DNA from: an uncultured Bacilli bacterium
GTDB lineage: Bacteria; Bacillota_I; Bacilli_A; RF39; UBA660
Length of the DNA stretch: 64,000 nt
NCBI GenBank assembly: GCA_934096605.1
Contig: CAKOMI010000002.1
Span: 789-64,788, forward strand
Direction: 5' to 3'
Shown here: positions 5,053 through 45,630 of the stretch, piece after piece
Layout of the letters: every line of letters begins with the position of its first letter
Numbering within the stretch: position 1 is the first letter of the stretch
Position numbers and translations under genes: made by a program
Notes under the pieces: generated by a model
Told to the model about the DNA's origin: nothing
What the model saw: the letters and a program-made list of their open reading frames with translations, nothing else
The model's database searches: none

Positions 5053-5772
5053 TTAGCCTCCTATTATAGTACTACTTAGTAAAACTAGTAATAGTGATAA
5101 AGAATTATGCATGACGTGAGTTATAGTACTTGTGAAAATTGTTTTGGTTTCAATATAACTTTTGGCAAAGAAATAACCGATACCACTATAAGGGATAATA
5201 TAAAGTAGTTGTAGTAAGTTAATGCTAGTTCCGGCTACAAAAGCATTTAATAAGTGGGCTCCACCAAATAATAGAGATGTTATTATCATGAAAGCTTTAT
5301 CGTTTGGTATAGCTTCTCTAAAGTTTTTTCTAAATAGTACTTCTTCAATAAAAGGACCTATTAAAGCCATGCTTATTATAGAGAATATTGGCATTTCATT
5401 TACAATTGAACGATTAAGAGTTTCATTGGTAGCCATATCACCAACAATGGAAAGAATTAAAGAATTACTTATAAACATAAATAGTAAGGCTAGTAACCAA
5501 TTTTTTAAACCGATTTTAAAGAAGGATTTAAAATTCTTTTTATAAAGAATGAATTCTTCTTTTAAAGATTTATGATAAAAAATATAAATTACTAGTAAAG
5601 TTAAAATATATATAATGGTATAGGCTATTATGTAGATAAGTCTATTTTGAAGGTCTAGTTTTAATATAGAGAAGAGATAGGCTGTTACATTTGGAATAAT
5701 AATCATGTAACTTAGTAGTATAGCTATGCTTCTAAGAATTGTTTTGGAGTTTATTTTTTTCAAATTAATCAC
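5053..5772 (-). CDS. CPBP-family intramembrane glutamic endopeptidase (CAAX protease-like)
   Basis: Polytopic. Motifs EEVLFR (EExxxR), FGGAHL (FxxxH) and HVMHN (HxxxN). Confidence 0.85.
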   Translation of the reverse strand: MINLKKINSKTILRSIAILLSYMIIIPNVTAYLFSILKLDLQNRLIYIIAYTIIYILTLLVIYIFYHKSLKEEFILYKKNFKSFFKIGLKNWLLALLFMFISNSLILSIVGDMATNETLNRSIVNEMPIFSIISMALIGPFIEEVLFRKNFREAIPNDKAFMIITSLLFGGAHLLNAFVAGTSINLLQLLYIIPYSGIGYFFAKSYIETKTIFTSTITHVMHNSLSLLLVLLSSTIIGG

Positions 5773-6068: not shown

Positions 6069-6099
6069 CATGATATGAGATTGATTAGAGGTGATTTAT

Positions 6100-6858
6100 G
6101 TGCGGAAAGGAAAGCAAATTCTTTTTCTTGTATTTGCTTTAACGGTGATGATGAAAGGTGTTAATGCTGAGTGTGACTATGAAACACAAGTGAAATTAGC
6201 AACAGAAGCTTCAAATGTTAAAACAAATTATGAGGTTAAAGATATTGTTATTAATTGGCAAACTGGTGAAGAGGTAACAGGTGTTACGGAAGACGAGATT
6301 GACGATGGAAGTGAATATGTTTTGGCAAAGAAAGTTATGGTTTCTTTATATAATATTACTAGCAATATGGTTGTTACTATTACTGATGGTGATGGAATGA
6401 ATGAGGAAGTCACTTATGAAGAAACTGATAATGGCACTTATACTTTTGATGGTGGTAAGTTAGAAAATATTATAAATTATGATATTAAAATAACTACTAA
6501 TAATCCAAGTTGTTCTGGTGATGAACTTAGAACACTTAACTTACAAACACCTAAGATAAATGATTATCATTATCTTACAGCTTGTGAAGGAGTAGACGAT
6601 TATTATTGCCAAGAATTTATAGATTTTGATTTGAATATGAGTGAAGATGAGATTATATCAAAAGCGCTACTTAAAAGAGATGGACAAACTAGCGATAATC
6701 AAAATACAGATGAAAATAAAAGTTGGTTTGATAATGTAAAAGAATATTTAAAGAAACACCAATGGATAGTGTTTACTACTATTGGAGGAATCATATTAAT
6801 AGCAGGGGTTGCTACTACCGTGATTATAATTAAAAAACGGAGGAGTAAAGTTTTATGA
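6100..6858 (+). CDS. Cys-containing secreted protein with C-terminal membrane anchor
   Basis: GTG at 6100 sits 5 nt after gaggtga; the track start 6091 lies inside the RBS. Sec signal ..MMKGVNA/EC, then a C-terminal TM plus KKRRSK stop-transfer. The stop overlaps the next start (ATGA). Confidence 0.7.
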   Translation: MRKGKQILFLVFALTVMMKGVNAECDYETQVKLATEASNVKTNYEVKDIVINWQTGEEVTGVTEDEIDDGSEYVLAKKVMVSLYNITSNMVVTITDGDGMNEEVTYEETDNGTYTFDGGKLENIINYDIKITTNNPSCSGDELRTLNLQTPKINDYHYLTACEGVDDYYCQEFIDFDLNMSEDEIISKALLKRDGQTSDNQNTDENKSWFDNVKEYLKKHQWIVFTTIGGIILIAGVATTVIIIKKRRSKVL

Positions 6859-9800
6859 GAAAGAAATATTTATTATTTATATTGATATTTATAGGGATTT
6901 TAACAATTCCTGGTGTAGCTAATGCAGAACTTAGTTGTGATGCATATTATAGCATTGCTAAGTCTGGGTGTACTGTATTAAATTTAAATGGTGAATCATA
7001 TGGTATGAATACTTATGATGCTGGTGGACTTAAGACATATTGCCTTGATCCAACTAAAACAAGTGGTCTAAAAAAAGGAGGACAAAGCATTTCTGCAAAA
7101 TGTTTTAGAAGAATTGATCCTTCTAGTAAGGGTATTTATCAAGCTTATGATGTGGCTGTTACAAAAGCTTATCAAATGCTTACTGACCAAGGAAGAAATA
7201 CAAATTCGGGAGCTGATAAAGTTTTGGGAGAAATAGTTTTCAGATGGCTTGGATCTTATTATTACTTGGTTGATACTAAAGCTTCATTTCCTAGAACACC
7301 TGTCTGTGGTACGGGTGGAAAAATCGATTCTGGAACTATTTTGAATATCTTTAATCCTAATAATTATGGCAAATACTGGAGTGGTTCAGCTTATGGCGAT
7401 TCTGCCACTGCATATTCGATTTTTAATGTTGCAATAAGTGCTGGAGATCGTATTAGTAAACAAGGTGCAACTTATGAACAACTTATTTCTGATGGAACTA
7501 TTTGGGGTGATAAATACACTGTTAATTCTGTAACTCAAGAAAGTGAAGGAACTAATGTTGATCGTATTACTATTAATTTGAGTTTGGATACTGATGTACA
7601 AACTGTCAATTGGTCAGAGTTTACTGGTGGATGTGATAATAACGGAGTTGTTTGTACTACTGAAAGTGCTGTTCCAAGTGGTAATGGGGTTACTGTTACG
7701 ATTAATGTTAAAAAAACTAATAAATATAATGGCGAAGATTATAAGGTCTATGTTCAAACCTCAATATATGATACCCGTTCTTCTTCAGCTAACATGATTA
7801 TTGTTAGACCTAATAAATATGTACAAAGTTTTTTACTTGTTTCTGATTCTACTAGGAGTATTTTGTCTGGTGGTAGTAAGGTATACGTTACCTCTACTCC
7901 TGGTAATTCAACTGGTGGTGGCAAATGTAGAATAGAAAAAAATACTTATTATTGTAATGACGGACAACCTTGTAGTGAACCAGAGTATCGTGCTGATTGC
8001 GATAAGCCAAAAATTAATTGTACACCTGCAATGACAATGCCTTCAAGTTGTAATAACTTTGACGCTGAGAATGAAACTACTGGTATAATAAGTGATATTA
8101 ATGAGGTTAATAGTAGTTGTAATACTACTGGTGTAAATCAAGTTAAAAAATGTGTTCTTGGACATAATGATTTAACTAATACGTCTTTTGAATCAACTAC
8201 TGAATTGAGTGGTAATGATTATTGCAAAGTTTACTGTAAAGAAAAATATACATTTAATGTTCCAACAGCTAAAATAACAAGGAGTGGTGGATATTTCACT
8301 TTATCTACTACTATTAATGGTGAAAGAGATTGTTATGTTGCTAGTGCTGATGAAACTGCAGCTAGAGAAGGGGCCGGTATTGATACTGTTAAATTTAAGG
8401 CAGACTTAATTGAAAAATCACATGCGGTTATTGATGCTTATAATGAATACTCAAAATGGAAAGCAGCTGCTGAAAAAGATTCTGATTCAACAAAGATTCA
8501 AAATTCTACACAATATTATTCTTCTGGAACGCAGGGAGTAAAATGCCATTCTGGTCATAGCTCTGCTACACAATATTTCAAGGATTGGGAGTATATTAAA
8601 TATTCTTATTCAGGTGTTGCTTCTAAAGAATTAGATAGTTATAGAAGTGGAAGCTGTCATGAATGTAATTGTACTGAGGGTACTAATAAGGATTCAGAAC
8701 ATAAATCTAATCGAGATACTGCATATGGTGATCTTAAAGCTAAATTAGCAGAATTAAATGAAATTATTCAACAATACAATAGTTGTTCTGGTGCAGTAGA
8801 TAATAGTACGCTTGATGCTTTAACAAGTAGTCTTACTACACAAAGAGCAACCTCTAATAATGATACAAGTTGGTCTAATAATATGCAATTTGATCCAAAA
8901 GTAACATTTAAATATAATGAAGCCTATAAGGATCAAATTAATGGGGAGTTTGTTCAAAAAAGTAAAACTACTGGTGGTAGTGAAACTTATTGCTCTGGCA
9001 ACATAAATGATAACTATATTTGTGATAATGGTGGTTCTTCTAGTGTTCAAACTACAACAACTAATACTGTTATTTGTAATACTAATGGATGCCAACCAGT
9101 AACTGTTAATATAAGTAATGCAAATTTTGTTCAAAAAACAAAAGAAGCAAGTGCTACTTATGAGCCAGATCATGATTTTGCAACATATACTCCTTATGGA
9201 ACTATAAAGTTTAAAAATCCGGCTTGTAAAGGTAATGATTGTTTATGGAGTAAATTACCAGAAAATGCTTTACCTGTTTCAATGATAACTAAGACTGGTG
9301 TATTCCCATTTGTTATTAACTTTAGTAATATTGGTCAAGATAATAAAACTGGGGCTTTAGGTCGACTTATGGGAGCTTCTACAAGTGTTTTAACAGAATA
9401 TGATAAATTAGATGATAATGTAAGATGCCCAAAAGGTAGTACGTCTGAAACTATGAGTCAAAATGCTGGATATGTTTGTCATTATTTGACAAATTGTGAT
9501 AACTGTAAATTTACATGTACAGATAAAAATAACTGCAAATTCATTCAACGTGAATGTACTGGTGATAAGTGTACATTAACTTGTAAGAACTGCTTATTTG
9601 ATGGCAAAACAAATAACTTTACATATCGTACAGTATCTGTAAATAATTTGAATCCAAATACACGTAGCCTAGGTTATAACTGGTCAAATGTTAAAGGTGA
9701 AGCAACTAAGAAAGAAATTGAAACAACTAGTGATACTATTTATGAAAAACCGCAATATTCTTATACTCTTACACCAACTAATTTGAAAAATATTCGTGAT

Positions 9801-10121
9801 TATAATGATGATGCTGGTTCATATACCAATGCTGAGGTTCCAAATAGTGTTTCAGCTAAAGTTGATGGTAATGCTTCACTTTATTGTGAAACTATGGATT
9901 ATAATGGAGTTTCTAATGGTGTTACCTACAAGTGCCGTAGTCGTTTCCTTGATTTAATTGAAAAGACTGGTAAAAAATATTCAACAAGTTCTTATCGTAT
10001 TACTAGTGATAGTAATGAAGGAACAGATGCTTATGAGTCATTTGATAAATGTTCTTCTGGTTATGGTAACGGAAATTGTAAATATATAGGACCTTCATGG
10101 CGTATTAAGGAGGTTAACTAA
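6855..10121 (+). CDS. large Cys-rich secreted protein (1088 aa), candidate pilus-associated adhesin
   Basis: Sec signal ..IPGVANA/E. Dozens of Cys, including the cluster CDNCKFTCTDKNNCKFIQRECTGDKCTLTCKNC. Translationally coupled on both sides. No family recognised. Confidence 0.75.
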   Translation: MRKKYLLFILIFIGILTIPGVANAELSCDAYYSIAKSGCTVLNLNGESYGMNTYDAGGLKTYCLDPTKTSGLKKGGQSISAKCFRRIDPSSKGIYQAYDVAVTKAYQMLTDQGRNTNSGADKVLGEIVFRWLGSYYYLVDTKASFPRTPVCGTGGKIDSGTILNIFNPNNYGKYWSGSAYGDSATAYSIFNVAISAGDRISKQGATYEQLISDGTIWGDKYTVNSVTQESEGTNVDRITINLSLDTDVQTVNWSEFTGGCDNNGVVCTTESAVPSGNGVTVTINVKKTNKYNGEDYKVYVQTSIYDTRSSSANMIIVRPNKYVQSFLLVSDSTRSILSGGSKVYVTSTPGNSTGGGKCRIEKNTYYCNDGQPCSEPEYRADCDKPKINCTPAMTMPSSCNNFDAENETTGIISDINEVNSSCNTTGVNQVKKCVLGHNDLTNTSFESTTELSGNDYCKVYCKEKYTFNVPTAKITRSGGYFTLSTTINGERDCYVASADETAAREGAGIDTVKFKADLIEKSHAVIDAYNEYSKWKAAAEKDSDSTKIQNSTQYYSSGTQGVKCHSGHSSATQYFKDWEYIKYSYSGVASKELDSYRSGSCHECNCTEGTNKDSEHKSNRDTAYGDLKAKLAELNEIIQQYNSCSGAVDNSTLDALTSSLTTQRATSNNDTSWSNNMQFDPKVTFKYNEAYKDQINGEFVQKSKTTGGSETYCSGNINDNYICDNGGSSSVQTTTTNTVICNTNGCQPVTVNISNANFVQKTKEASATYEPDHDFATYTPYGTIKFKNPACKGNDCLWSKLPENALPVSMITKTGVFPFVINFSNIGQDNKTGALGRLMGASTSVLTEYDKLDDNVRCPKGSTSETMSQNAGYVCHYLTNCDNCKFTCTDKNNCKFIQRECTGDKCTLTCKNCLFDGKTNNFTYRTVSVNNLNPNTRSLGYNWSNVKGEATKKEIETTSDTIYEKPQYSYTLTPTNLKNIRDYNDDAGSYTNAEVPNSVSAKVDGNASLYCETMDYNGVSNGVTYKCRSRFLDLIEKTGKKYSTSSYRITSDSNEGTDAYESFDKCSSGYGNGNCKYIGPSWRIKEVN

Positions 10122-10564
10122 TGAGAGAATCATATTGGGGTTATTGGATAATCTTACTTGGTATATTTGTTATTGTAATAATGATGCTTGTATCAAATGT
10201 TACGACCACAAATACACAAGATTATTATCTTATTAAAGAGGTTACGGAAGCTTCAATGGTAGATGCGGTAGATTTATCTTACTACCGTACTACTGGCGAA
10301 CTTAGAATAAATTCTGATAAGTTTGTGGAAAGCTTTTTAAGAAGATTTGCAGAAAACGTAGAAATGAATACTTATCAAGTTGATTTCTATGGTATATATG
10401 AAGCTCCTCCTAAAGTAAGTGTTAAAGTTACTACTAAGAGTGCAACATATTCTGTAGCGTCTGATTCTACGTCTTTTGATATTACTAATAAAGTAGATGC
10501 AATATTAGAACTTAATGGTGTTGTAGAAGATTCTGGATCACAGGATAATAATATTACACCTTAA
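10121..10564 (+). CDS. pseudopilin-like protein (TadE/TadF size class) with MRESYWG leader
   Basis: Start overlaps the previous stop (TAATG). The N-terminus MRESYWG-YWIILLGIFVIVIMML parallels the N-termini of ORFs 38246 and 38755. Confidence 0.55.
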   Translation: MRESYWGYWIILLGIFVIVIMMLVSNVTTTNTQDYYLIKEVTEASMVDAVDLSYYRTTGELRINSDKFVESFLRRFAENVEMNTYQVDFYGIYEAPPKVSVKVTTKSATYSVASDSTSFDITNKVDAILELNGVVEDSGSQDNNITP

Positions 10565-10579
10565 TAAGGAGGAATGAAA

Positions 10580-11422
10580 ATGGGGAATATTCTCGTAAAA
10601 GTAAAAAGATTTTTAAGTAACAAGAATACTGTAACAATACTATGTGTTTTAGCAGGTATTCTTGTTCTTTATATTGGTTATAATTGGCGAGTTAAGTCAG
10701 CGACTGAACCAATTCGTATACCTTATGCCAAGACTGCTTTAGCTTCAAGACATAAAATTACTCGTGATGATATTGGATATATGGAGGTTAGTGGTACTGT
10801 TGTTAGTAAAATGGGTAACGTTATACGTAATCAAAATGAATTGATTGATAAAGAGGTTACTTATGGTAATACTATTCAGCAAAATGCTTTTTTCTTTAAA
10901 GGGGACGTTGAAGAGGCTTCTTCTAATAAAGGAACAAGTTCACTACTTTCAAATATTTCTGATGGTTATACGTTAGTTTATTTAGACGTTGACTTACATA
11001 GTACTTTTGGTAATGCTATATATCCTGGTAATTATATTGATTTATGGTTTGAAGGAAAAGACGAAAATGGGCGTTATATATATGGTAAGTTTATTCAAAG
11101 TATAAAAGTACTTGATGTTACTGATAGTGATGGTAATTCTGTTTTTGAAACAGGTAGTGAAAGTAGAACACCAGCACAGCTATTATTTGCAGTGCCAGAT
11201 GATTTGAAATCATTACTTGAAAAAGCTAAATTGGTCGGAAAATTAATACCAGTTCCTAGAAATAAAAGCTATTCACAAAATCCTGGTGCTACTGAAGTGG
11301 CTAGTTCTTATCTAGAAAATTATATTATCGCTAAATCAGCTATTATTCCTGATGAAAATATAACTGATAATACTGATGAGAATGATGATACACTAGAGAG
11401 TGATGGTGATACTAATGAATAG
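10580..11422 (+). CDS. cpaB: Flp pilus assembly protein CpaB/RcpC-like (SAF domain), paralog 1
   Basis: ATG 10580 lies 7 nt after AAGGAGG. N-terminal TM, then a SAF-like segment (IRIPYAKTALASRHKITRDDIGYMEV), then ..GYTLVYLDVD..GNAIYPGNYIDLWF..IKVLDV..AQLLFAVPDD..L..AK.VGKL.PVPRN. This matches the CpaB architecture. Confidence 0.75.
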   Translation: MGNILVKVKRFLSNKNTVTILCVLAGILVLYIGYNWRVKSATEPIRIPYAKTALASRHKITRDDIGYMEVSGTVVSKMGNVIRNQNELIDKEVTYGNTIQQNAFFFKGDVEEASSNKGTSSLLSNISDGYTLVYLDVDLHSTFGNAIYPGNYIDLWFEGKDENGRYIYGKFIQSIKVLDVTDSDGNSVFETGSESRTPAQLLFAVPDDLKSLLEKAKLVGKLIPVPRNKSYSQNPGATEVASSYLENYIIAKSAIIPDENITDNTDENDDTLESDGDTNE

Positions 11423-12239
11423 TACTTTAACTAAATTAAAAAGATTTATAGGTAATAAAAATACAGTTACTATTTTGTGTGTTATTGCAGGGGTTGTTGT
11501 TTTATACGTAGGTTATAATTATCGTGTAAAATCGAAAATTAATCCAACTACTGTACCTTATGCTAAAGTTAAATTAGAAGCTAGACATGTTATTACTGCT
11601 GATGATATTGGTTATATGGAAGTTAATAGTGACGTCATTAATAAGAGTACTAATTTAATTAAAAATGCTAAAAGCTTAATTGGAATGGAGGTTACTTATG
11701 GTAATACCATCCAACAAAATAGTTTGTTTTATACTGGTGATTTAACAGAAGCAACATTATCACCAGATTATGTTTTAAGTGATATTGAAGATGGTTATAC
11801 GGCATTCTCTTTAAGTGTTGATACTTATACTACTTATGGTAATGCGATTAAGAAAAATAACTATATTGATTTATGGTTTAATGGTACTGATGATAGTAAA
11901 AAAATAATTTATACTAACTTAGTTAAAAGTATTAAAGTTTTAGACGTAAGAGATGCCTCTGGTGTTTCTTTAGATAATCCAAGTAGTACTGGTGAACCAG
12001 CCGAATTATTATTTGCTGTACCAGATGACTTATATGTATTGCTTGTAAAAGCACTTAATGTGGGTAAATTAGAGCCTGTTCCTAGAAATGCTAACTATAC
12101 GGCTAAGCCTGGAGAAACGCAAGTTGTTAGTGACTATGTTAAGGATTATATTTTATCTAAATCAGTAACTATTCCAGAAGATAGTACTAATAGTAGTGAT
12201 AATACTGATGCTACTGATGAAACTGATATTACAGAATAA
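11415..12239 (+). CDS. cpaB: CpaB/RcpC-like protein, paralog 2 (tandem duplicate)
   Basis: Collinear with the previous ORF (KRFIGNKNTVTILCV.., GNTIQQN, NYIDLWF, IKVLDV, ELLFAVPDDL, PVPRN). Likely start MNSTLTKLKRF at 11415. Confidence 0.75.
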   Translation: MNSTLTKLKRFIGNKNTVTILCVIAGVVVLYVGYNYRVKSKINPTTVPYAKVKLEARHVITADDIGYMEVNSDVINKSTNLIKNAKSLIGMEVTYGNTIQQNSLFYTGDLTEATLSPDYVLSDIEDGYTAFSLSVDTYTTYGNAIKKNNYIDLWFNGTDDSKKIIYTNLVKSIKVLDVRDASGVSLDNPSSTGEPAELLFAVPDDLYVLLVKALNVGKLEPVPRNANYTAKPGETQVVSDYVKDYILSKSVTIPEDSTNSSDNTDATDETDITE

Positions 12240-12256: not shown

Positions 12257-13363
12257 ATGAATGATGCTGTATTTTCTCAATTAGATTTTGGACCTCTAGA
12301 AGAGTTTTTAAGAGAAGATAATGTAACTGATATCTCCTATACTAATGGAGGACAGGTTTGGTTAAAGACATTAGATAAAGGTGTGTATCAAGTTGATCGC
12401 CCAGAGATAAATAATGCTTTAATGGAAAAGTTAGCATTTCAATGTGCTAATGTTATGGGTAAGACTTTTAATATGGCCCATCCAATGCTCGATGCTGAAA
12501 GTGCAGAGTTACGTCTTAACTTTATACATGATTCTATTGCTACAAATGGCATAGCGTGTGTTATAAGAAAGACGCCAGCCAAAATCAGATTAAATAAAGA
12601 AAAGTTATTAAATGAAAAATATGTTACAAAATCTATTCATGAGTTTTTAATGAAATGTGTTGAAGGACACGCCAATATTATCGTAAGTGGTGAGACTGGC
12701 TCAGGTAAAACAGAACTTGTTAAATATTTAGCTAGTCATATTAAAGAAAATGAAAAGATTATTACAATTGAAGATACACTAGAACTACACTTGGATAGAA
12801 TATTTCCACACCGTGATATTGTAGCTTTAAAAACAAATAATATTGCTAGTTATAGTGACGTTTTAGTGGCTTGTATGCGACAAAACCCAATTTGGATATT
12901 ACTTTCAGAGGTTCGTTCAGCGGAAGCCGTTATGGCGGTTCGTAACTCGATATCTTCTGGACACCACATCTTATCAACCATCCACTCAGATAAAGCAAGT
13001 TTAATTCCGATGCGTATGTTTTCTTTGATTGAAAGTAATATTGACGTTGAACAATTCGTTACGACAATCCATCGTTATGTACAAATTGGTATTTATGTTA
13101 AAGGTTATATGAGTAAGGAACTAGGTAGATTTCAACGTGAGATTTTAGAGGTATGTGAATTTTACGTAGATGAACATAATAAACCACAAGTAAATACAAT
13201 TTATAAAAAGACTTTAACTGGTGATATTACAATGAATAATCCAACTAAGTATTTGAGAGATTATTTAGGAATAAGTGGTATTATTCTTGATGATGACATC
13301 TTTAAATTGGACGAAGGAGCTGTTGATACCAAGGCTCCAGTAGGGTCCATAGAAACACTTTAG
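12257..13363 (+). CDS. tadA: TadA/CpaF/VirB11-family secretion ATPase
   Basis: Walker A GETGSGKTE, Asp box IITIEDTLEL, Walker B/His box region ..ILLSEVR....SGHHILSTIHS. This is the T2SS/T4SS 'E' ATPase fold. Confidence 0.85.
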   Translation: MNDAVFSQLDFGPLEEFLREDNVTDISYTNGGQVWLKTLDKGVYQVDRPEINNALMEKLAFQCANVMGKTFNMAHPMLDAESAELRLNFIHDSIATNGIACVIRKTPAKIRLNKEKLLNEKYVTKSIHEFLMKCVEGHANIIVSGETGSGKTELVKYLASHIKENEKIITIEDTLELHLDRIFPHRDIVALKTNNIASYSDVLVACMRQNPIWILLSEVRSAEAVMAVRNSISSGHHILSTIHSDKASLIPMRMFSLIESNIDVEQFVTTIHRYVQIGIYVKGYMSKELGRFQREILEVCEFYVDEHNKPQVNTIYKKTLTGDITMNNPTKYLRDYLGISGIILDDDIFKLDEGAVDTKAPVGSIETL

Positions 13364-13372: not shown

Positions 13373-14269
13373 ATGATAGAACTTTTATTACTTGTTGGTC
13401 TTGCTGTTTTTGCTCTTAGTTATAGGTTTAATAATGGTGAGAATGTTTATAAATTCTTTGTTACACAAGTAAGTTCTGCATATGATAAATATGCTCCTTA
13501 CTCATTTAAAGAGGTAAGAAAGAAAACTAAGGAACTTGGTCAAGAGTATACAGCTAAACAATATATAGCTCAAGTTGTTGTGTTTGCCGTGGTGGCTTTT
13601 GGTATTACATATTTATATTTTTATAACATTATTATTGCAATTATTTATGCTTTAATTGCTATTGCTTTTATTCCTTATTTAGCTTATTTAAGATGCCAAA
13701 AGGTTTATAGTGAATTTATTTTTGAACAAATTCAAATTTACACGACTAATGTTATTATGGAATTTAATACCACACAGAGTTTTGTTAAATCCTTAGAAGG
13801 TGTTAGAGACTCAGGTATATTAGAAGATCCAGTTTTAAGTGATGTTAAAACAATGATTGATATGTCTTATCAAAATGGTACAATTGATGAATCAGTAGAG
13901 TTTTTTAATCATAAATATCCTTTTTATATGGTTAAGAATATGAATCAATTATTCTTACAAATTACTAAGGAAGGTGCGAAAGACTCAGGACAAGCCCTAG
14001 AAAATATGTCTTTAGATATCGATGCCTTAGTAGAAGGTGTTTATAGAGACCAAATTGATAGAAAAGAGTTTCATCGAAGATTTGTTACATTTGGACTTGC
14101 CTTATTCCTACTTGTTATGGCAATGCAGTTTTTGCTCGGAACGGACTCTTATATTGAGTTACTTGATAATATTTTTGTTCAGCTAATTTTACACGCGATT
14201 ATTATTATTAACTGTTTCTTCTTAGTTAGTGGTGAAAAATTCTACTATGAAGATGTGGGGGTGGAATAA
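13373..14269 (+). CDS. tadB: TadB-like polytopic membrane platform protein
   Basis: Immediately follows the ATPase. It has N- and C-terminal TM clusters flanking a soluble helical domain, the T2SS-F-like topology. Assignment rests on position and topology only. Confidence 0.55.
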   Translation: MIELLLLVGLAVFALSYRFNNGENVYKFFVTQVSSAYDKYAPYSFKEVRKKTKELGQEYTAKQYIAQVVVFAVVAFGITYLYFYNIIIAIIYALIAIAFIPYLAYLRCQKVYSEFIFEQIQIYTTNVIMEFNTTQSFVKSLEGVRDSGILEDPVLSDVKTMIDMSYQNGTIDESVEFFNHKYPFYMVKNMNQLFLQITKEGAKDSGQALENMSLDIDALVEGVYRDQIDRKEFHRRFVTFGLALFLLVMAMQFLLGTDSYIELLDNIFVQLILHAIIIINCFFLVSGEKFYYEDVGVE

Positions 14270-15057
14270 TGTATTGGGAGGTTTTTGCACTAGCTGCAAT
14301 CTTATTATTTGCTCTTAATTATACTGGTAAGATTAGTGCTAATAGGTTTGTGTCTGATAATGAAGTATATTTTCGAAAATTAAAAGAAAGTGATTGGGAT
14401 TTTTATGTTAAAGCTCGTTATGGTGATACTGTAAATCCAGATTTTCTATTTAACAAACGAATTAAAAATGGGTTAGTAACCATTGTTGTTATGTTATGTT
14501 TTTTTATTTCTAACTTGTCATACATTACTATTTTATTCAGTGTTTTAGCAGGTTTCTTAGTATTTAAACTTGATTATTCTAATATTAAAAAATACTATAA
14601 AAGACATTTAAGTGAAATAGATTCAATGTTACCACATTATTTAAAAAGTTTAGAGATTTTGATTCAACACTATACAGTTCCAGTGGCACTTGGTAAAAGT
14701 ATTGAAGATGCTCCACCTATATTTAAAGAAGGATTACAAGAATTAATAACCCAAATTAATGAAGGGGATGATTCAATTAATCCATACATGCAATTTGCTA
14801 GAACTTATCCAGTAAGGGATTCAATGCGAATGATGCGTCTTTTGTATCGTTTATCATTAGGTCGTCAAGAACATAAACAAGAACAATTACTAACATTTTC
14901 GAAGACTATTTCTAATTTACAACAAAAAGCGCGTGAATTAAAATATAAACAACGTCTTGAGAAGATGGAAGGTAAAACAATGAAAATGTTAATTACTACA
15001 GGTTTAGGGGTTATGATTTTGCTAGTCTTTGCGGTTTTAATGATGATGAATATGTAA
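14269..15057 (+). CDS. tadC: TadC-like polytopic membrane platform protein
   Basis: Start overlaps the previous stop (TAATG). Topology is similar to the previous ORF. Last gene before the terminator. Confidence 0.55.
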   Translation: MYWEVFALAAILLFALNYTGKISANRFVSDNEVYFRKLKESDWDFYVKARYGDTVNPDFLFNKRIKNGLVTIVVMLCFFISNLSYITILFSVLAGFLVFKLDYSNIKKYYKRHLSEIDSMLPHYLKSLEILIQHYTVPVALGKSIEDAPPIFKEGLQELITQINEGDDSINPYMQFARTYPVRDSMRMMRLLYRLSLGRQEHKQEQLLTFSKTISNLQQKARELKYKQRLEKMEGKTMKMLITTGLGVMILLVFAVLMMMNM

Positions 15058-34979: not shown

Positions 34980-35008
34980 AATCTAGTTATTATAGCTAGA
35001 TTTTTTTT
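34978..35008 (+). terminator. intrinsic terminator after the T4CP gene
   Basis: aaatctag-ttattatag-ctagattt followed by ttttt. Confidence 0.6.
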
Positions 35009-35050
35009 CTATTATTGTGCTATAATTTTGGTGATATAGAGGGTGATAAT

Positions 35051-37670: not shown

Positions 37671-37699
37671 TTGATATTTATTTAAAAAAAAGTTATAAT
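37671..37699 (+). promoter_or_regulatory. promoter of the pilin module
   Basis: TTGATA (37671-76), 17-nt spacer, TATAAT (37694-99). Confidence 0.5.
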
Positions 37700-37725
37700 A
37701 ATGTATAGATAGGAGGAATTAATAA

Positions 37726-37971
37726 ATGAAAGAAGCGACTGGTGAATTAAATATGACTGTTGTTACTGTAGTAGCAATTGCTGCCGTAGCTGCATTCTTT
37801 TATGCCTTTATTTGGCCAAGTATCAAAGGAACCATAACTGCTAGTACTAGATGCTCTATGGCTGTTAATTGTAATGATGACTATACTCAATGTCACTATA
37901 CTGATGAAAGTGGTACAGAGTCAACAGAAACAATAAATTGCAAAACATATTTTGAAAGTGCTAATAAATAA
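37726..37971 (+). CDS. Flp-size pilin-like protein 1 (non-canonical MKEATG leader)
   Basis: Strong RBS taggagga. 81 aa: MKEATG-ELNMTVVTVVAIAAVAAFFYAFIW, then a short mature domain with 4 Cys. Confidence 0.6.
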   Translation: MKEATGELNMTVVTVVAIAAVAAFFYAFIWPSIKGTITASTRCSMAVNCNDDYTQCHYTDESGTESTETINCKTYFESANK

Positions 37972-37987
37972 TAATTAGGAGGTAAAT

Positions 37988-38230
37988 ATGAAAGAGGCGA
38001 CTGGTGAGTTAAATACTATGGTTATTGTGGTAATTATTGTGGCTATGCTAGTAGCCTTCTTTTACTTTACCATATGGCCTGCTATTAAAAATAACATGAA
38101 TCAAAATAGTGCATGTGCAAGAGCTATATGTCCTAAAGAAAACAGAAGCAGTGATGGTAGAACAGTTGATTGTTATGTTTATGAAAACAATCAAAAATCA
38201 GATACCTTTAAATGTGTATGGAAGGGTTAA
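37988..38230 (+). CDS. Flp-size pilin-like protein 2 (tandem paralog)
   Basis: RBS taggaggt. 80 aa: MKEATG-ELNTMVIVVIIVAMLVAFFYFTIW, 4 Cys in the mature part. Confidence 0.6.
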   Translation: MKEATGELNTMVIVVIIVAMLVAFFYFTIWPAIKNNMNQNSACARAICPKENRSSDGRTVDCYVYENNQKSDTFKCVWKG

Positions 38231-38245
38231 TAAAGGGGTGAAATT

Positions 38246-38758
38246 ATGCGAGAAGCCATAGGTGGTACATGGTTATTTCAAATTGTTATTATATTCATTC
38301 TGTTATTTACAGGATTTATGTGCCTTTCTATTAATCGTTCCAAGGCATTTAATGTTAAGGATGAAATTATTCAAACAATTCAAAGTTATAATGGTATTGA
38401 CTTACAAAAAGATTATAGTGATGGTGATGTTGGCCCTTTAGCAGATATTGTTACTTATATTAAAGATAATTCATATCGGACTGTTGGGGTAAAACCACAA
38501 GCAATAAAAAATGTTGGTGGTGATAGTGTTGAATATACATGCTTTAATAAAGATGGGAAGAATACCTCATCTAATCCAGTTTTTTGTATTGCACCTGTTA
38601 GTTCTAAGAATGATGCTGGTGATAACTTTAAAGAATTACCGGATATGATTTATTATCGTGTGGTTGTTTTTTATCAGCTTGATTTACCAGTTTTTCATGA
38701 TTTGTTTAATTTTCGGGTAGTAGGAGATACAAAAACCCTTTATGGAGGTAGAAAATGA
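38246..38758 (+). CDS. TadE/TadF-size pseudopilin-like protein 1
   Basis: MREAIGG-TWLFQIVIIFILLFTGFMCLSIN. 170 aa, coupled to the next ORF (ATGA). Confidence 0.55.
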   Translation: MREAIGGTWLFQIVIIFILLFTGFMCLSINRSKAFNVKDEIIQTIQSYNGIDLQKDYSDGDVGPLADIVTYIKDNSYRTVGVKPQAIKNVGGDSVEYTCFNKDGKNTSSNPVFCIAPVSSKNDAGDNFKELPDMIYYRVVVFYQLDLPVFHDLFNFRVVGDTKTLYGGRK

Positions 38759-39225
38759 GACAGGCAATAGGTACAACATGGGTAATGCAGTTAGTAATAA
38801 TATTTATGTTAATCTTTGTTGCTTTCTTAGCTTTAACAATTAACTATACGAAAGCTTTTAAAGTGAAAAATGAATTAGTTACTATTGTTGAAAAGTATGA
38901 AGGTATTCAAACAAAGTCAGGTGGTTCGATTGAATTAATCAATAATTATTTAAGTTATAATGGTTATGGTACGATGAAGGCTTGTGAAACTGGTTATTAT
39001 GGTGTAGATAATTTAAATGATCCTACTCTTAAAGAGGTTGTGAAAGGTCAAAAATACTACTATTGTATTAAGCCAATTTCATCAAAAAGTACATCGACAC
39101 CTAACCGAGAAAAATATAAAATTCAAATATTTTTTAAATTTAGTTTGCCTGTAATAGGGGATATATTCACGTTTGCTGTTGAAGGAACAACAATTGATAT
39201 TACAAACCCTAATAGTGAAATATAG
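38755..39225 (+). CDS. TadE/TadF-size pseudopilin-like protein 2
   Basis: MRQAIG-TTWVMQLVIIFMLIFVAFLALTIN. Paralog of the previous ORF (..KAF.VK.E......Y.G.., YYC/FCI.P.SSK). Confidence 0.55.
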   Translation: MRQAIGTTWVMQLVIIFMLIFVAFLALTINYTKAFKVKNELVTIVEKYEGIQTKSGGSIELINNYLSYNGYGTMKACETGYYGVDNLNDPTLKEVVKGQKYYYCIKPISSKSTSTPNREKYKIQIFFKFSLPVIGDIFTFAVEGTTIDITNPNSEI

Positions 39226-39233
39226 GAGGAATT

Positions 39234-40271
39234 ATGAATGTTAAAATAGTAAATAAATATGCTGCTTTATTAGCAGGACTTGATATTGATTTTATTAAAA
39301 GTATTGATGGTGAATTTACTCCTGAAGATATCGTTATGCAATTTTCTAATTTTTTCTTTAATAAGATGATTATTGATATAACAGCTATCAAAGGGTATCA
39401 AGACATTACTAAAATTCAAGAATTATCAGTCAACATGGATATGAGTAAAGTTATTCTTCTTTTAGATGATTCTGAGGTTGTTAATAGCCCTAGATATTTA
39501 TCTCAACTAGTTTCAATGGGAATATATAACTTTACTAGAAATGTTGATGCCATTAAATTTTTAATTGATAATCCTAATTCATATAAAGATGTGGCCCAGT
39601 ACCATCAATTAAATAATCAAATGATGAGTTATCCAGAGACTTCTAAAAATGTTTCTAACGATATGGCTGATGGTTCTTATGCTTCACCAACTATTATTTA
39701 TGAAGAAAGAAATTTAAGAATTATTGGGATAAAAAATGTTACTGAACATGCTGGTAGTACAACTTTAACATACTTACTTAAGAAACAATTAGAAAAGAAA
39801 TATCGCGTTGTTGCTGTTGAGGTTGATGATAATGACTTTATGTTTTTTAACGATAAATCTCTAAAGCATACTAATCATATGGAACTTCAAAACTTTATTG
39901 CGGCAAATTACAATGCTGACGTTATATTGGTCGACTTAAATAATCAAGGCCCTGTTGCGGCTTGCAATGAGGTATTATATTTAATAGAGCCAGGTCTTAT
40001 AAAATTAAATAAATTAATAAGAAAAGACAAAAAAGCTTTTGAAAAGTTAAAAGGAGAAAAAATAATTCTTAATAGAAGTGTTTTAAATAGTACTGATGTG
40101 GCTGATTTTGAATATGAGTCACGGAGTAAAGTATATTATAATATTCCATATTTAGATGATAAACTTGACAATAATCATGTTTTAAATGAATTACTTATTA
40201 AAATGGGTTTTGCAAGATTAGATGAAGATAATTCTGAAAAGGGTGGCAAACTATTTAGTATATTTAAATAG
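39234..40271 (+). CDS. tadZ: TadZ/CpaE-like ParA/MinD-family protein with degenerate P-loop
   Basis: N-terminal receiver-like domain. The C-terminal MinD/ParA-like domain RIIGIKNVTEHAGSTTLTYLL..VVAVEVDD..VILVDLN has a deviant Walker A lacking the Lys. It sits directly after the pilin genes. Confidence 0.5.
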   Translation: MNVKIVNKYAALLAGLDIDFIKSIDGEFTPEDIVMQFSNFFFNKMIIDITAIKGYQDITKIQELSVNMDMSKVILLLDDSEVVNSPRYLSQLVSMGIYNFTRNVDAIKFLIDNPNSYKDVAQYHQLNNQMMSYPETSKNVSNDMADGSYASPTIIYEERNLRIIGIKNVTEHAGSTTLTYLLKKQLEKKYRVVAVEVDDNDFMFFNDKSLKHTNHMELQNFIAANYNADVILVDLNNQGPVAACNEVLYLIEPGLIKLNKLIRKDKKAFEKLKGEKIILNRSVLNSTDVADFEYESRSKVYYNIPYLDDKLDNNHVLNELLIKMGFARLDEDNSEKGGKLFSIFK

Positions 40272-40297
40272 ACTGAGTGTTAAAGCTCAGTTTTTTT
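40272..40297 (+). terminator. intrinsic terminator ending the pilin module
   Basis: actgag-tgttaaag-ctcagt followed by tttttt. Confidence 0.6.
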
Positions 40298-43901: not shown

Positions 43902-43930
43902 AAAGACTAAATAAAACTAAGTAATAAAAT

Positions 43931-45620: not shown

Positions 45621-45630
45621 TAATTTATTT

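What the first reader, a model, noticed from the sequence alone, without database searches (positions are those of the whole stretch)
37671..40271. Pilin module whose five pilin-like proteins share a non-canonical leader M-[KR]-[EQ]-[AS]-x(1-2)-G
Five small proteins start with the same very short polar leader, followed directly by a 20-25 aa hydrophobic helix. They are at 37726, 37988, 38246 and 38755, plus one 27 kb away at 10121. The N-termini are MKEATG-ELNMTVVTVVAIAAV, MKEATG-ELNTMVIVVIIVAML, MREAIGG-TWLFQIVIIFILLF, MRQAIG-TTWVMQLVIIFMLIF and MRESYWG-YWIILLGIF. The two size classes (80-81 aa and 147-170 aa), the tandem arrangement and the following ParA/MinD-like protein reproduce the Flp / TadE-TadF / TadZ layout of Tad (type IVc) loci. 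The leader, however, lacks the G/xxxxEY processing motif shared by Flp, TadE and TadF. It also differs from the classical G/FTLxE prepilin motif, which is present in this same window on the ComGC-like pilins at 27314 and 27775. Both Flp-size proteins carry 4 Cys in a ~45-aa mature domain. This looks like a distinct pilin class with its own maturation rule.
Basis: partly seen in the sequence, partly recalled or inferred. Interest (0 to 1): 0.8.

Follow-up and report, generated by a model that had tools for sequence, protein, structure and literature searches.

The report
Divergent pilins of a Tad-like machine
Five small membrane-anchored proteins of an uncultured gut bacterium look like the filament subunits of a very divergent type IV (Tad-like) pilus machine, and because relatives and Bacillus/Listeria conjugative plasmids place this machine beside DNA-transfer genes, Gram-positive conjugation systems may build a pilus after all.

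Summary
Five ORFs (37726, 37988, 38246, 38755, 10121) begin with M-[KR]-[EQ]-[AST]-x(1-2)-G followed by a hydrophobic helix, and no other ORF in the window does. The motif is conserved in three unrelated families across at least 80 related genomes.

The proteins match no pilin family. The 10121 protein is DUF5411; the small ones give only sub-threshold archaeal Pilin_N hits.

Context points to pilins. In 52 of 78 related loci the two halves of this window form one operon: secreted proteins, DUF5411, CpaB, a CpaF/VirB11-type ATPase, two platform-like membrane proteins, 1-3 small pilins, two mid-size pilins and a degenerate ParA-like protein. Type IV secretion (T4SS) genes usually follow.

Profile comparisons link the module, gene for gene, to a Priestia plasmid operon and to genes 36-41 of pLS20-family conjugation operons, which are published as "unknown".

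The leader fits the generic class III signal peptide: a short polar leader ending in a small residue. A separate "maturation rule" is therefore not demonstrated.

No A24 peptidase was found in any sequence held, and only about 84 kb of this genome could be examined. Whether the leader is cleaved remains open.

Verdict: a new variant of the type IV filament kind, conjugation-linked, of moderate-to-high interest.

The parts
37671..37699 (+). Promoter-like site of the pilin module (TTGATA-17-TATAAT, 11 of 12 matches)
   Evidence: An AGGAGG Shine-Dalgarno site lies 9 nt before the ATG at 37726.
37726..37971 (+). s1: 81-aa small pilin-like protein, the presumed major subunit. Leader MKEATG, an invariant N-terminal helix and a hypervariable C-terminal domain with 4 Cys.
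   Evidence: It has 1861 homolog clusters. Residues 1-33 are about 80% identical between homologs, the rest about 20%. Cys number is 4 or 6 in 117 of 118 unique homologs. Pilin_N hits are sub-threshold.
37988..38230 (+). s2: 80-aa second small pilin-like protein with the same leader and 4 Cys
   Evidence: Most of the 80 related loci carry two small pilin genes (range 1-3).
38246..38758 (+). M1: 170-aa mid-size pilin-like protein, leader MREAIG
   Evidence: The AlphaFold2 model has pLDDT 86.7, with helix 4-47 and a 4-stranded sheet. No Pfam family.
38755..39225 (+). M2: 156-aa paralog of M1, leader MRQAIG
   Evidence: 34% identity, E 1e-28. M genes were detected in 78 of 80 related loci, usually as a pair.
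39234..40271 (+). [not shown]
   Evidence: Weak CbiA hit, E 0.007. Conserved in 74 of 80 loci. Invariant columns. No PDB hit by sequence or by profile.
40270..40293 (+). Terminator-like hairpin ending the module
10121..10564 (+). D: 147-aa DUF5411 pilin-like protein, leader MRESYWG
   Evidence: Pfam PF17424, E 7e-58. AlphaFold2 model with helix 5-48 plus a 3-stranded sheet. In nearly all of the 150 best of 633 representatives the domain starts at residue 1, often with long C-terminal extensions.
10574..12239 (+). Two CpaB/RcpC-like proteins (10574-11422 and 11400-12239)
   Evidence: Pfam RcpC E 8e-5 and 6e-6. NCBIfam pilus_cpaB E 1e-4 and 2e-11, near full length, below the cut-off.
12257..13363 (+). 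F: 368-aa secretion ATPase of the CpaF/VirB11/FlaI group
   Evidence: Pfam T2SSE E 1e-27. PDB: CpaF 5e-18, VirB11 4e-17, FlaI 1e-16. NCBIfam: VirB11 123 bits, TadA conjugal-transfer-associated 102 bits, both below the cut-offs.
13373..15057 (+). tB (13373-14269) and tC (14269-15057): two polytopic membrane proteins in the TadB/TadC position
   Evidence: No Pfam or PDB hit of their own. hhalign links tB to a PGAP-annotated T2SS-F family protein of a Priestia plasmid (94%, E 1e-7) and tC to its neighbour (97%, E 1e-11). tC also matches pLS20 gene 39 (95%, E 3e-8).
6091..10121 (+). sp255 (6091-6858; Sec signal peptide plus a C-terminal anchor) and BIG (6855-10121; 1088 aa, Sec signal peptide, Cys-rich, no anchor). 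These are conserved first genes of the operon and are candidate pilus-borne adhesins.
   Evidence: sp255 is detected in 36 and BIG in 31 of the 80 loci, many of which are cut off upstream.
5053..5772 (-). CPBP/Rce1-like intramembrane protease, divergent from the operon start. Association only; no role is shown.
   Evidence: Pfam Rce1-like E 6e-13. NCBIfam MroQ-like E 6e-8. It is the immediate upstream gene in 7, and present upstream in at least 11, of the 15 loci whose first operon gene is sp255 and whose upstream flank is visible.

Best explanation
The five proteins are the filament subunits (prepilin-like proteins) of a highly divergent member of the type IV filament superfamily.

The machine. 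It consists of a CpaF/VirB11-type ATPase, two single-domain platform-like membrane proteins in the TadB/TadC position, one or two CpaB-like proteins and a degenerate ParA-like protein in the TadZ position.

Proposed roles (inferred)
- s1 is the major subunit. It is the first gene after a strong promoter, and it combines an invariant N-terminal helix with a hypervariable, disulfide-bonded head.
- s2 is a second small subunit.
- M1, M2 and the DUF5411 protein are minor subunits.
- DUF5411 sits beside the large secreted protein and often carries adhesin-like extensions, so it is probably a tip or initiation subunit.

Proposed steps (inferred)
1. The short N-terminus keeps the proteins N-in in the membrane.
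2. The leader is removed after the conserved small residue (Gly6 or Gly7) by an A24 prepilin peptidase encoded elsewhere in the genome.
3. The ATPase and platform extrude the helices into a fibre.

What is shown: the anatomy, the conservation, the gene linkage and the homology of the machine parts.

Likely function (inferred from linkage only): cell-cell contact or adhesin display for the T4SS that follows the operon in most relatives, and that surrounds the homologous genes 36-41 of pLS20-family plasmids.

This window. The ancestral operon is split. One half lies at 6-15 kb and the other at 37.7-40.3 kb. The T4SS pilin-like genes lie just beyond the right end of the window.
For: Gene linkage
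- In 80 related genomes the gene order is sp255-BIG-DUF5411-CpaB-ATPase-tB-tC-s(1-3)-M-M-Z.
- tC lies directly upstream of s in 52 of 78 loci. L041 shows an intermediate arrangement.

Machine identity
- ATPase: T2SSE domain, with best PDB hits to CpaF, VirB11 and FlaI.
- CpaB: near-full-length TIGR03177 match, E 2e-11.
- tB resembles a T2SS-F family protein (94%) and tC resembles its neighbour (97%).

Pilin-like features
- The leader plus about 21 hydrophobic residues fits the class III signal peptide definition.
- Position -1 is G/S/A in 98% of s, G/S in 95% of M, and G/A/S in 93% of D in the related loci (90% in the wider family).
- s: residues 1-33 are about 80% identical between homologs, against about 20% for the rest. 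Third codon positions vary, so this is selection on the protein. Cys number is 4 or 6 in 117 of 118 homologs.
- 39 of 69 s proteins give sub-threshold hits to the archaeal type IV pilin N-terminal domain, and to no other pilin family.
- AlphaFold2 models of M1 (pLDDT 86.7) and D (pLDDT 70) show a helix of about 44 residues from residue 4-5, followed by a small sheet. This is the pilin "lollipop" layout.
- The module has its own promoter and terminator.

Availability of a peptidase. Canonical prepilins (MKKG|FTLIEV) in the same window imply that the genome encodes a prepilin peptidase.

Conjugation link
- A T4SS_pilin-like gene is the next gene after Z in 45 of 63 loci. TrbL-like and VirB4-like genes follow it in the loci examined, for example L004, L014, L069 and L072.
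- Collinear profile matches to pLS20 genes: g36 (E 7e-7), g37 (32% identity, E 8e-42), g38 (5e-4), g39 (3e-8), g40 (6e-6), g41 (8e-4). Mismatched control pairs gave 0.003-0.36.
Against: - No A24 peptidase gene was found in the window, its 10-kb flanks or the 80 related loci.
- Foldseek found no significant PDB pilin match for either model.
- tB, tC and Z have no direct hit to T2SSF or TadZ. tB is linked to T2SSF only through one intermediate sequence that itself scores 24.2 bits against a cut-off of 25.2. tC has no T2SSF link at all.
- The small residue at -1 is not conserved in the distant pLS20-family counterparts. Examples are g36 MKDFISI.. and g41 MLDSNTDR...
- The leader residues K2 and E3 are more strongly conserved than is usual for a discarded leader.
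- Glu5 is absent.
- No fibre, cleavage or expression data exist.
Confidence: 0.65

Rival explanations
1. Leaderless pilins. The subunits polymerise without any proteolytic maturation. The N-terminus is so short (3-8 polar residues: Met1 amine, Lys2, Glu3, and Glu7 in s) that it can sit in the filament core. The conserved basic/acidic pair would do the job that the N-terminal amine and Glu5 do in classical pilins.
For: - No A24 gene was found in any of the 80 operons, in the 84 kb of this genome that could be examined, or in the stretches examined of the pLS20-type and Listeria/Paraclostridium plasmids.
- K2 and E3 are conserved at 92-95% in s and are also conserved in M and D.
- The distant counterparts g36, g40 and g41 keep a basic/acidic pair but not a small residue at the would-be cleavage site.
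Against: - Every characterised type IV filament needs a prepilin peptidase (PMC10191384).
- The G/S/A preference at one position in three unrelated families is what a cleavage site predicts.
- Canonical prepilins in the window imply that a peptidase is available.
- Peptidase genes often lie outside pilus operons (general knowledge: comC, and Bifidobacterium tadV).
Confidence: 0.2
2. The leader is removed by a different enzyme: the CPBP/Rce1-like glutamic intramembrane protease encoded divergently from the operon start. That would give the system a maturation route of its own.
For: - The CPBP gene is the immediate upstream gene in 7, and present upstream in at least 11, of the 15 loci whose first operon gene is sp255 and whose upstream flank is visible. 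It also lies next to the pilin genes in 5-6 split loci and after Z in L021.
- It matches the MroQ model, E 6e-8. From my own knowledge, MroQ removes the N-terminal leader of AgrD in Staphylococcus aureus.
Against: - The adjacency may simply be inherited synteny within one clade. The gene always travels with a metallophosphoesterase gene.
- It is absent from the Priestia and pLS20-type operons.
- CPBP genes are common in Firmicutes (general knowledge).
- There is no precedent for a CPBP protease acting on pilins.
Confidence: 0.07
3. They are not filament subunits. Instead they are ordinary bitopic (N-in, signal-anchored) accessory proteins of the Gram-positive T4SS channel, and the ATPase acts as that channel's VirB11.
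For: - The best NCBIfam hit of the ATPase is VirB11.
- T4SS genes are adjacent in most relatives.
- The pLS20 literature calls gene 37 VirB11 and genes 36 and 38-41 unknown (PMC8557374).
- Foldseek gives no pilin match.
Against: - CpaB-like proteins and a T2SS-F-related membrane protein are hallmarks of type IV filament machines, not of T4SS channels.
- An invariant N-terminal helix joined to a hypervariable, disulfide-bonded head, in 1861 clusters, is the signature of an exposed, polymerising subunit under diversifying pressure.
- The Pilin_N signal recurs across the family.
Confidence: 0.08

Closest known systems
Tad/Flp pilus (type IVc pilus; Flp1, TadE/TadF, TadZ, TadA, TadB/TadC, RcpC/CpaB, TadV)
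   Same: - An ATPase of the CpaF group.
- Two separate platform-like membrane proteins after the ATPase.
- A CpaB-like protein.
- One or more pilins of 50-80 aa followed by two larger pilin-like proteins and a ParA-like protein.
- A short leader ending in Gly.
   Different: - No G/xxxxEY motif and no Glu5.
- No Flp_Fap, TadE or T2SSF Pfam membership.
- The small pilins have a Cys-rich head of about 45 aa that Flp lacks.
- No tadV in or near the operon.
- The ATPase is equally VirB11-like.
- The ParA-like protein lacks the P-loop Lys.
- The operon starts with large secreted proteins and is followed by T4SS genes.
Genes 34-41 of the conjugation operon of pLS20-family plasmids (Bacillus), with the same block in Listeria, Paraclostridium and Peribacillus plasmids (PMC8557374, PMC8092201)
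   Same: - Collinear order: large secreted adhesin, a ~126-aa N-terminal-TM protein (g36, a distant DUF5411 relative), the ATPase (g37, 32% identical), two membrane proteins (g38, g39), a ~120-aa N-terminal-TM protein (g40) and one or more ~47-aa Flp-size proteins (g41). T4SS genes follow, including a VirD4 of the CD1115 family.
- Profile matches are collinear.
   Different: - Sequence similarity is weak apart from the ATPase.
- There are no CpaB or ParA-like genes.
- The N-termini are even shorter and lack the conserved Gly.
- The small proteins have no Cys-rich head.
- The published annotation is "putative VirB11" plus "unknown", and the papers state that Gram-positive elements form no conjugative pili.
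DUF5411-containing operon on a Priestia koreensis plasmid, and the "uncharacterised secretion-related operon" of Miller et al. 2022 (PMC9523054)
   Same: - DUF5411 protein, SAF/CpaB protein, CpaF/VirB11 ATPase, T2SS-F family protein and its partner, preceded by a large surface protein.
- Miller et al. list CpaF, PilC/GspF, DUF5411 and an internalin-like protein.
   Different: - In Priestia the ParA-like gene precedes the ATPase.
- Only one DUF4320-like pilin candidate follows.
- No s- or M-type genes were seen.
- A 172-aa polytopic protein with A24-like motifs heads the operon.
- Neither source describes the pilins or their leader.
Pilus gene cluster of the uncultured gut clade TANB77 (PMC11680825)
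   Same: A divergent Tad-like cluster (CpaB, TadZ, CpaF, TadB/C) in uncultured gut Firmicutes, followed by several unannotated proteins with one N-terminal TM helix that the authors call pilin-like.
   Different: The gene order, sizes and families differ: TadB/C are fused, and there are seven pilin-like proteins of 143-621 aa. No T4SS link and no shared leader were reported. I did not test homology to the present proteins.
[quoted passage not shown]
   Same: A type IV filament machine encoded beside a T4SS and used for mating-pair formation (as reviewed in PMC12857230). This is the best functional analogy.
   Different: Those are type IVb pili with canonical prepilins and a dedicated peptidase, in diderm bacteria. 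No homology beyond the superfamily level.
Archaeal type IV pilins (Pfam PF07790 Pilin_N)
   Same: This is the only pilin family with a recurrent signal: 39 of 69 small proteins, best E 0.0013. Shared features are a short leader, a small residue at -1 and no Glu5.
   Different: All hits are below the Pfam cut-off (17.5 bits against 25.2 for the window protein). The organism is bacterial. The Cys-rich head is unrelated.

Membership tests
Type IV pilin (class III signal peptide, as defined in PMC10191384) | Hydrophilic or neutral leader ending in Gly or Ala | tested here: met
   The leaders are MKEATG, MREAIG, MRQAIG and MRESYWG. The last leader position is G/S/A in 98% of 155 s proteins, G/S in 95% of 146 M proteins, and G/A/S in 93% of 46 D proteins and 90% of 148 wider-family representatives. 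The Ser variants and the aromatic YW in the D leader are atypical.
Type IV pilin (class III signal peptide, as defined in PMC10191384) | A mainly hydrophobic stretch of 20-25 residues directly after the leader, forming helix alpha1N | tested here: met
   Read directly from the sequences. AlphaFold2 places a continuous helix at residues 4-47 (M1) and 5-48 (D).
Type IV pilin (class III signal peptide, as defined in PMC10191384) | Glu at mature position 5 (frequent, not obligatory) | tested here: not met
   If cleavage follows the Gly, s has Glu at +1, M has Gln at +6 and D has no polar residue.
Type IV pilin (class III signal peptide, as defined in PMC10191384) | "Lollipop" fold related to solved pilins | tested here: inconclusive
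   The layout of the models (long N-terminal helix plus a 3- or 4-stranded sheet) fits. Foldseek against the PDB gives no match with E below 0.1.
Type IV pilin (class III signal peptide, as defined in PMC10191384) | Leader removed by an A24 prepilin peptidase, and subunit polymerised into a filament | not testable with these tools
   This needs N-terminal proteomics and microscopy. No A24 gene is present in about 1.4 Mb of held sequence. Only about 84 kb of this genome could be read.
Flp pilin family (Pfam PF04964 Flp_Fap; G/xxxxEY) | Match to the Flp_Fap profile and the G/xxxxEY processing motif | tested here: not met
   None of 69 small proteins hits Flp_Fap at E up to 1. The motif is absent from the sequences.
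Tad (type IVc) machine | TadA/CpaF-family ATPase | tested here: inconclusive
   T2SSE domain, E 1e-27. PDB: CpaF 68.8 bits, VirB11 65.9, FlaI 64.0. NCBIfam: VirB11 122.7 bits, TadA-type 102.3, both far below their cut-offs. The protein belongs to the CpaF/VirB11/FlaI group but cannot be assigned within it.
Tad (type IVc) machine | [quoted passage not shown] | tested here: inconclusive
   Two membrane proteins of 298 and 262 aa follow the ATPase. Neither has a Pfam or PDB hit of its own. tB matches a Priestia protein (hhalign 94%) that PGAP names T2SS-F family and that scores 24.2 bits on Pfam T2SSF against a cut-off of 25.2. tC matches that protein's neighbour (97%), for which no T2SSF match was found.
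Tad (type IVc) machine | CpaB/RcpC protein | tested here: inconclusive
   TIGR03177 E 2e-11 over residues 24-243 (43.5 bits, cut-off 71). Pfam RcpC 26.6 bits (cut-off 28.8). A distant homolog, below the curated cut-offs.
Tad (type IVc) machine | TadE/TadF pseudopilins (Pfam TadE) | tested here: not met
   None of the 117 mid-size proteins hits TadE. Three give a faint hit (E at least 0.14) to the TM region of PF13400.
Tad (type IVc) machine | TadZ: ParA/MinD-type protein with an N-terminal receiver-like domain | tested here: inconclusive
   Weak CbiA hit (E 0.007). Walker-A-like GxKNVTxHAGSTT without the Lys. No PDB hit by sequence or by profile, so the solved TadZ structure I recall from Eubacterium rectale was not matched either.
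Tad (type IVc) machine | Dedicated TadV peptidase | tested here: not met
   Absent from the operon and from 10 kb on either side in 80 genomes, from this window and from its flanks. It could be encoded elsewhere in the genome.
DUF5411 (Pfam PF17424) | Match above the Pfam gathering score | tested here: met
   The 10121 protein scores 194.7 bits against a cut-off of 30, E 7e-58. The other four proteins do not match.
pLS20-family conjugation module (genes 36-41) | Collinear homologs of g36-g41 next to T4SS genes | tested here: inconclusive
   The ATPase is clearly homologous (32% identity, E 8e-42). Profile-profile E-values: g39 3e-8, g36 7e-7, g40 6e-6, g38 5e-4, g41 8e-4; mismatched control pairs 0.003-0.36. 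T4SS genes are adjacent in relatives. In this window the VirD4 gene lies 2.7 kb upstream.

The most novel reading that the evidence does not exclude
Gram-positive conjugation systems contain a previously unrecognised type IV filament module. It occurs in pLS20-family, Listeria and clostridial plasmids and in their chromosomal relatives in at least 328 species-representative genomes, mostly uncultured gut Bacilli. The "VirB11" of these systems would in fact be the motor of that module, working with a split TadB/C-like platform. Its subunits have ultra-short M-K-E-type N-termini. They would either be matured outside the classical G/FxxxE and G/xxxxEY rules or not be cleaved at all. The fibre would carry the anchor-less secreted adhesin (BIG here, TIE in pLS20) to the recipient cell. 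In short, this would be a Gram-positive conjugative pilus of the type IV filament kind.
Probability: 0.3. Interest if true: 0.85.

Novelty: new variant of a known kind. Interest (0 to 1): 0.68.

Why it matters
Three pilin-like families have no annotation. The small one alone has 1861 clusters at 90% identity, and only DUF5411 has a Pfam entry. They are widespread in uncultured, small-genome gut Bacilli. Their variable, disulfide-bonded heads are probably exposed to host and phage pressure.

The module is also collinear with pLS20 genes 36-41. Recent reviews state that Gram-positive T4SSs "universally lack VirB11" and form no pili (PMC12857230, PMC8557374). The pLS20 literature leaves open how the anchor-less TIE adhesin is held on the cell surface (PMC8092201).

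Reading this block as a type IV filament machine turns that question into direct experiments in a genetically tractable host, Bacillus subtilis carrying pLS20. It also offers a natural test of whether a type IV filament can be assembled from subunits that lack Glu5 and perhaps are never processed.

Tried and rejected
1. SipW-type signal peptidase at 41214 as the maturation enzyme. Rejected: a homolog appears in only 1 of 80 related loci, and there it is not adjacent to the module. In addition, the N-terminal 33 residues are the best conserved part of s, unlike a discarded Sec signal peptide.
2. A24 peptidase search. I used strict and loose GxGDxK-type motif scans and phmmer with a candidate from the Priestia plasmid, against the window, its flanks and 80 loci. 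Nothing was found.
3. The 172-aa Priestia protein with A24-like motifs has no Pfam or PDB support. It is kept only as a lead.
4. Foldseek of the M1 and D models against the PDB gave no significant hits.
5. Profile searches of tB, tC and Z against the PDB gave nothing. tB and tC show no detectable similarity to each other.
6. tblastn of the DUF5411 protein against plasmids found no match at E up to 1e-3, although the Priestia plasmid does encode a distant member that only the Pfam model detects.
I repeated it with database hits.
8. Canonical N_methyl prepilins as regular partners of the operon. Rejected: they occur near it in only 2 of 80 loci.
9. Recent horizontal spread as the cause of N-terminal invariance. 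Rejected: third codon positions differ, with 61% identity at identical residues.

Full report
**Observation.** The five ORFs are present as described. They are s1 at 37726-37971 (81 aa), s2 at 37988-38230 (80 aa), M1 at 38246-38758 (170 aa), M2 at 38755-39225 (156 aa) and D at 10121-10564 (147 aa). I scanned every candidate start codon of ORFs of at least 60 aa on both strands. Exactly these five starts match M[KR][EQ][AST]x(1-2)G. M1 and M2 are paralogs (34% identity, E 1e-28). s1 and s2 share 41% identity, mostly in the N-terminal third. D shares only the first ~35 residues with M. The motif therefore recurs in three otherwise unrelated families. The module is a self-contained transcription unit: a promoter at 37671-37699 (11 of 12 matches), strong ribosome-binding sites and a terminator-like hairpin at 40270-40293.

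**Family searches.** D is a full-length member of Pfam DUF5411 (E 7e-58). The other four have no Pfam or NCBIfam family. Scanning 69 s-type and 117 M-type homologs one by one gave no Flp_Fap, N_methyl or TadE hit. The only recurrent pilin signal is a sub-threshold match of 39 of 69 s proteins to the archaeal type IV pilin N-terminal domain (best E 0.0013). Three M proteins give a faint match to the TM part of PF13400. All database homologs are unnamed or "hypothetical": 1861 clusters for s1, 1752 for D and 364 for M1.

**Host and distribution.** GC content is about 28%. A scan of one genome per species found at least 328 genomes encoding an s-type protein. Among the 80 listed, most are gut MAGs labelled uncultured Bacilli, Tenericutes, Mycoplasma sp., Clostridium sp. 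CAG:628, or Candidatus Ventrenecus, Caccenecus or Coprovivens. About a fifth are labelled Muribaculaceae or other taxa, which I take to be submitter labels. The exact window arrangement recurs in many metagenome assemblies.

**Gene context.** I called ORFs in the 80 loci and matched them to the window proteins. This gives a highly conserved operon: sp255, BIG, D, CpaB (one or two copies), ATPase, tB, tC, s (one to three copies), M, M, Z. tC lies directly upstream of s in 52 of 78 loci. The other 26 are split, like this window. Locus L041 is an intermediate in which only an amidoligase, p539 and u170 lie between tC and s. The window has these same three genes at 15129, 35015 and 37131. The D protein "27 kb away" is therefore the other half of the same system. 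The window's 6.1-15.1 kb region encodes the machine:
- Two CpaB-like proteins (Pfam RcpC E 8e-5 and 6e-6; TIGR03177 E 2e-11, near full length, below the cut-off).
- A T2SSE ATPase.
- Two polytopic membrane proteins.

**Identity of the machine parts.**
- The ATPase belongs to the CpaF/VirB11/FlaI group but cannot be placed within it. PDB scores are CpaF 68.8 bits, VirB11 65.9 and FlaI 64.0. NCBIfam scores are VirB11 122.7 bits and "TadA family conjugal transfer-associated ATPase" 102.3.
- tB and tC have no direct Pfam or PDB match.
- A homologous operon on a Priestia koreensis plasmid supplies a bridge. Its order is DUF5411, SAF/CpaB, ParA-like, CpaF/VirB11, "type II secretion system F family protein", then a hypothetical protein. 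tB aligns to the T2SS-F protein (94%, E 1e-7, 237 columns) and tC to its neighbour (97%, E 1e-11). The T2SS-F protein itself scores 24.2 bits on Pfam T2SSF against a cut-off of 25.2.
- Z has a weak CbiA hit and a conserved GxKNVTxHAGSTT motif, which is a ParA/MinD-like P-loop without the lysine. It has no PDB hit.

**Pilin-like properties.**
- Leader conservation is strong. In s, every residue of MKEATGELN is at least 86% conserved. In M, position 6 is G123/S16 of 146. In D, position 7 is G41 of 46, and G111/A16/S7 of 148 in the wider family (633 representative clusters at 50% identity).
- In s, residues 1-33 are about 80% identical between species, against about 20% for the rest. Third codon positions vary. 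Cys number is 4 or 6 in 117 of 118 unique homologs, which suggests two or three disulfide bonds. This is the classical signature of a major pilin.
- AlphaFold2 gives M1 (pLDDT 86.7) a helix at residues 4-47, a second helix and a 4-stranded sheet. It gives D (pLDDT 70) a helix at 5-48 and a 3-stranded sheet.
- Foldseek found no significant PDB neighbour for either model, so the fold evidence stops at the level of architecture.
- In nearly all of the best 150 representatives, the DUF5411 match starts at residue 1. These proteins often carry C-terminal extensions of up to 700 aa, some with Flg_new repeats, as expected for a tip subunit that carries an adhesin.

**Maturation.** By the definition in PMC10191384, a class III signal peptide has a hydrophilic leader ending in Gly or Ala, then 20-25 mainly hydrophobic residues, "with often, but not always" Glu5. 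The five proteins fit this definition. What they lack is Glu5 and the family-specific G/FTLxE or G/xxxxEY motifs. A separate maturation rule is thus not required.

Two canonical prepilins (MKKG|FTLIEV) in this window imply that the genome has a prepilin peptidase. However, I found no A24 peptidase in the window, its 10-kb flanks or the 80 loci. The distant pLS20-type counterparts lack the small residue at that position. The leader residues K2 and E3 are unusually well conserved.

Cleavage is therefore an inference. I put it at about 50% overall, "no cleavage" at about 20%, and the divergently encoded CPBP/MroQ-like protease at about 7%. That protease gene is present upstream in at least 11 of the 15 loci whose upstream flank is visible.

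**Link to conjugation.** A T4SS_pilin-like gene is the next gene after Z in 45 of 63 loci. In the loci examined (L004, L014, L069, L072) it is followed by TrbL/VirB6-like, PrgI-like and VirB4-like genes. In this genome the T4SS_pilin-like genes lie 4.5-8.5 kb beyond the right end of the window. A CD1115-family VirD4 and a wall-hydrolase-like protein lie at 29.7-35.0 kb.

The nearest plasmid relatives of the ATPase are the "VirB11-like" proteins of pLS20-family Bacillus plasmids and of Listeria, Paraclostridium, Peribacillus and Lactococcus plasmids. In the Bacillus, Listeria, Paraclostridium and Peribacillus plasmids the block is the same: a large adhesin, a ~126-aa TM protein, the ATPase, two membrane proteins, a ~120-aa TM protein and 47-aa proteins. 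A VirD4-like gene and a pLS20_p028-family (VirB6-type) gene follow in the Listeria and Paraclostridium plasmids.

Profile-profile comparison gives collinear matches:
- D to g36, E 7e-7
- tB to g38, E 5e-4
- tC to g39, E 3e-8
- M to g40, E 6e-6
- s to g41, E 8e-4
- Mismatched control pairs, E 0.003-0.36

**What the literature says.** The published pLS20 annotation lists g37 as "putative VirB11" and g36 and g38-41 as unknown. It states that Gram-positive elements form no conjugative pili (PMC8557374). The TIE adhesin paper leaves open how the anchor-less adhesin is held at the surface (PMC8092201). A 2025 review says Gram-positive T4SSs universally lack VirB11 (PMC12857230).

Miller et al. 2022 flagged a DUF5411/CpaF/PilC operon as an uncharacterised secretion-related system. 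Kim et al. 2024 described an analogous but different divergent Tad cluster in the TANB77 clade. None of the papers I found and read describes these pilins or their leader.

**Verdict.** The Tad-like reading is right in outline, but membership of the Tad family is not established: Flp, TadE and TadV are not met, and the ATPase, platform, CpaB and TadZ tests are inconclusive. The best description is a new variant within the type IV filament superfamily. It has three new pilin families sharing an ultra-short M-K-E-x-x-G N-terminus, and it is embedded in, or descended from, Gram-positive conjugation gene sets. Function (mating contact or adhesin display) and leader cleavage are inferred, not shown.

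Noticed in passing
window 43560-46015: A 273-nt direct repeat (98% identical) duplicates the 5' end of uvrB (43560-43832 and 45743-46015). The two copies flank a 507-aa ORF (44097-45620) with no Pfam family. This looks like an insertion that duplicated the start of uvrB and left a 112-aa UvrB fragment ORF at 43563-43901.
   Followed up: partly
window 36743-37078: A 111-aa thymidylate synthase fragment (PF00303) lies just upstream of the pilin module. It is probably a scar of the rearrangement that split the operon.
   Followed up: partly
window 41214-42197: A SipW/archaeal-type signal peptidase I (TIGR02228, E 2.7e-27) with a Lys/Glu-rich C-terminal extension of about 140 aa. It lies next to the module here, but a homolog appears in only 1 of 80 related loci, so it is probably unrelated to the pilins.
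   Followed up: partly
window 5053-5772 (- strand): A CPBP/Rce1-like intramembrane protease (MroQ-like) is encoded divergently from the operon start. It keeps this position in most related loci whose upstream flank is visible, and it lies next to the pilin genes in several split loci. It always travels with a metallophosphoesterase gene (4188-5051 here).
   Followed up: partly
window 27302-28251: Two canonical N-methyl prepilins (MKKG|FTLIEV...) lie beside a glucosaminidase gene, with no ComGA- or ComGB-like genes nearby. They imply an A24 peptidase elsewhere in the genome.
   Followed up: partly
window 29723-36634; L081 14538-18887 (beyond the right end of the window): Scattered conjugation genes. 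Inside the window: a wall-hydrolase-like 729-aa protein, a 249-aa TM protein, a CD1115-family VirD4 (301 bits, above the cut-off) and a 539-aa protein. About 4.5-8.5 kb past the window end there are three T4SS_pilin-like genes. In this genome the ancestral pilus-plus-T4SS unit is broken into at least three pieces.
   Followed up: partly
window 22684-24111: An AbiEi/AbiEii toxin-antitoxin pair, plus XRE-type regulators at 19830-20069 (- strand) and 22244-22540. They lie in the stretch that separates the two operon halves, which suggests mobile or accessory DNA.
   Followed up: no
window 58383-59412: CotJB and CotJC (Mn-catalase-like) spore-coat genes in what appears to be a small-genome uncultured gut Bacilli lineage. 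This hints at sporulation capacity.
   Followed up: no
L085 1461-1979 (Priestia koreensis plasmid NZ_CP061869.1, 158670-159188): A 172-aa polytopic "hypothetical protein" heads the homologous DUF5411 operon. Its motifs TDVKELKTYN and SPGDTKMF recall the two catalytic-Asp motifs of A24 prepilin peptidases, but it has no Pfam or PDB hit.
   Followed up: partly
L086 12002-12367; L087 12235-12638; L088 12077-12223; L089 12147-12425: pLS20-family, Paraclostridium, Peribacillus and Listeria plasmids encode Flp-size proteins of 47-65 aa (for example MEENSGRLFLAMGAVIILG... and MLDSNTDRLLWTVVTVVVVGA...) right after the ATPase-platform block. They are annotated as hypothetical.
   Followed up: partly
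L019 9616-9843: A third small pilin copy has an altered N-terminus (MKFYKINNELNMTV...) that lacks the Gly. It may be a decaying copy, a natural leader variant or a mis-called start.
   Followed up: no
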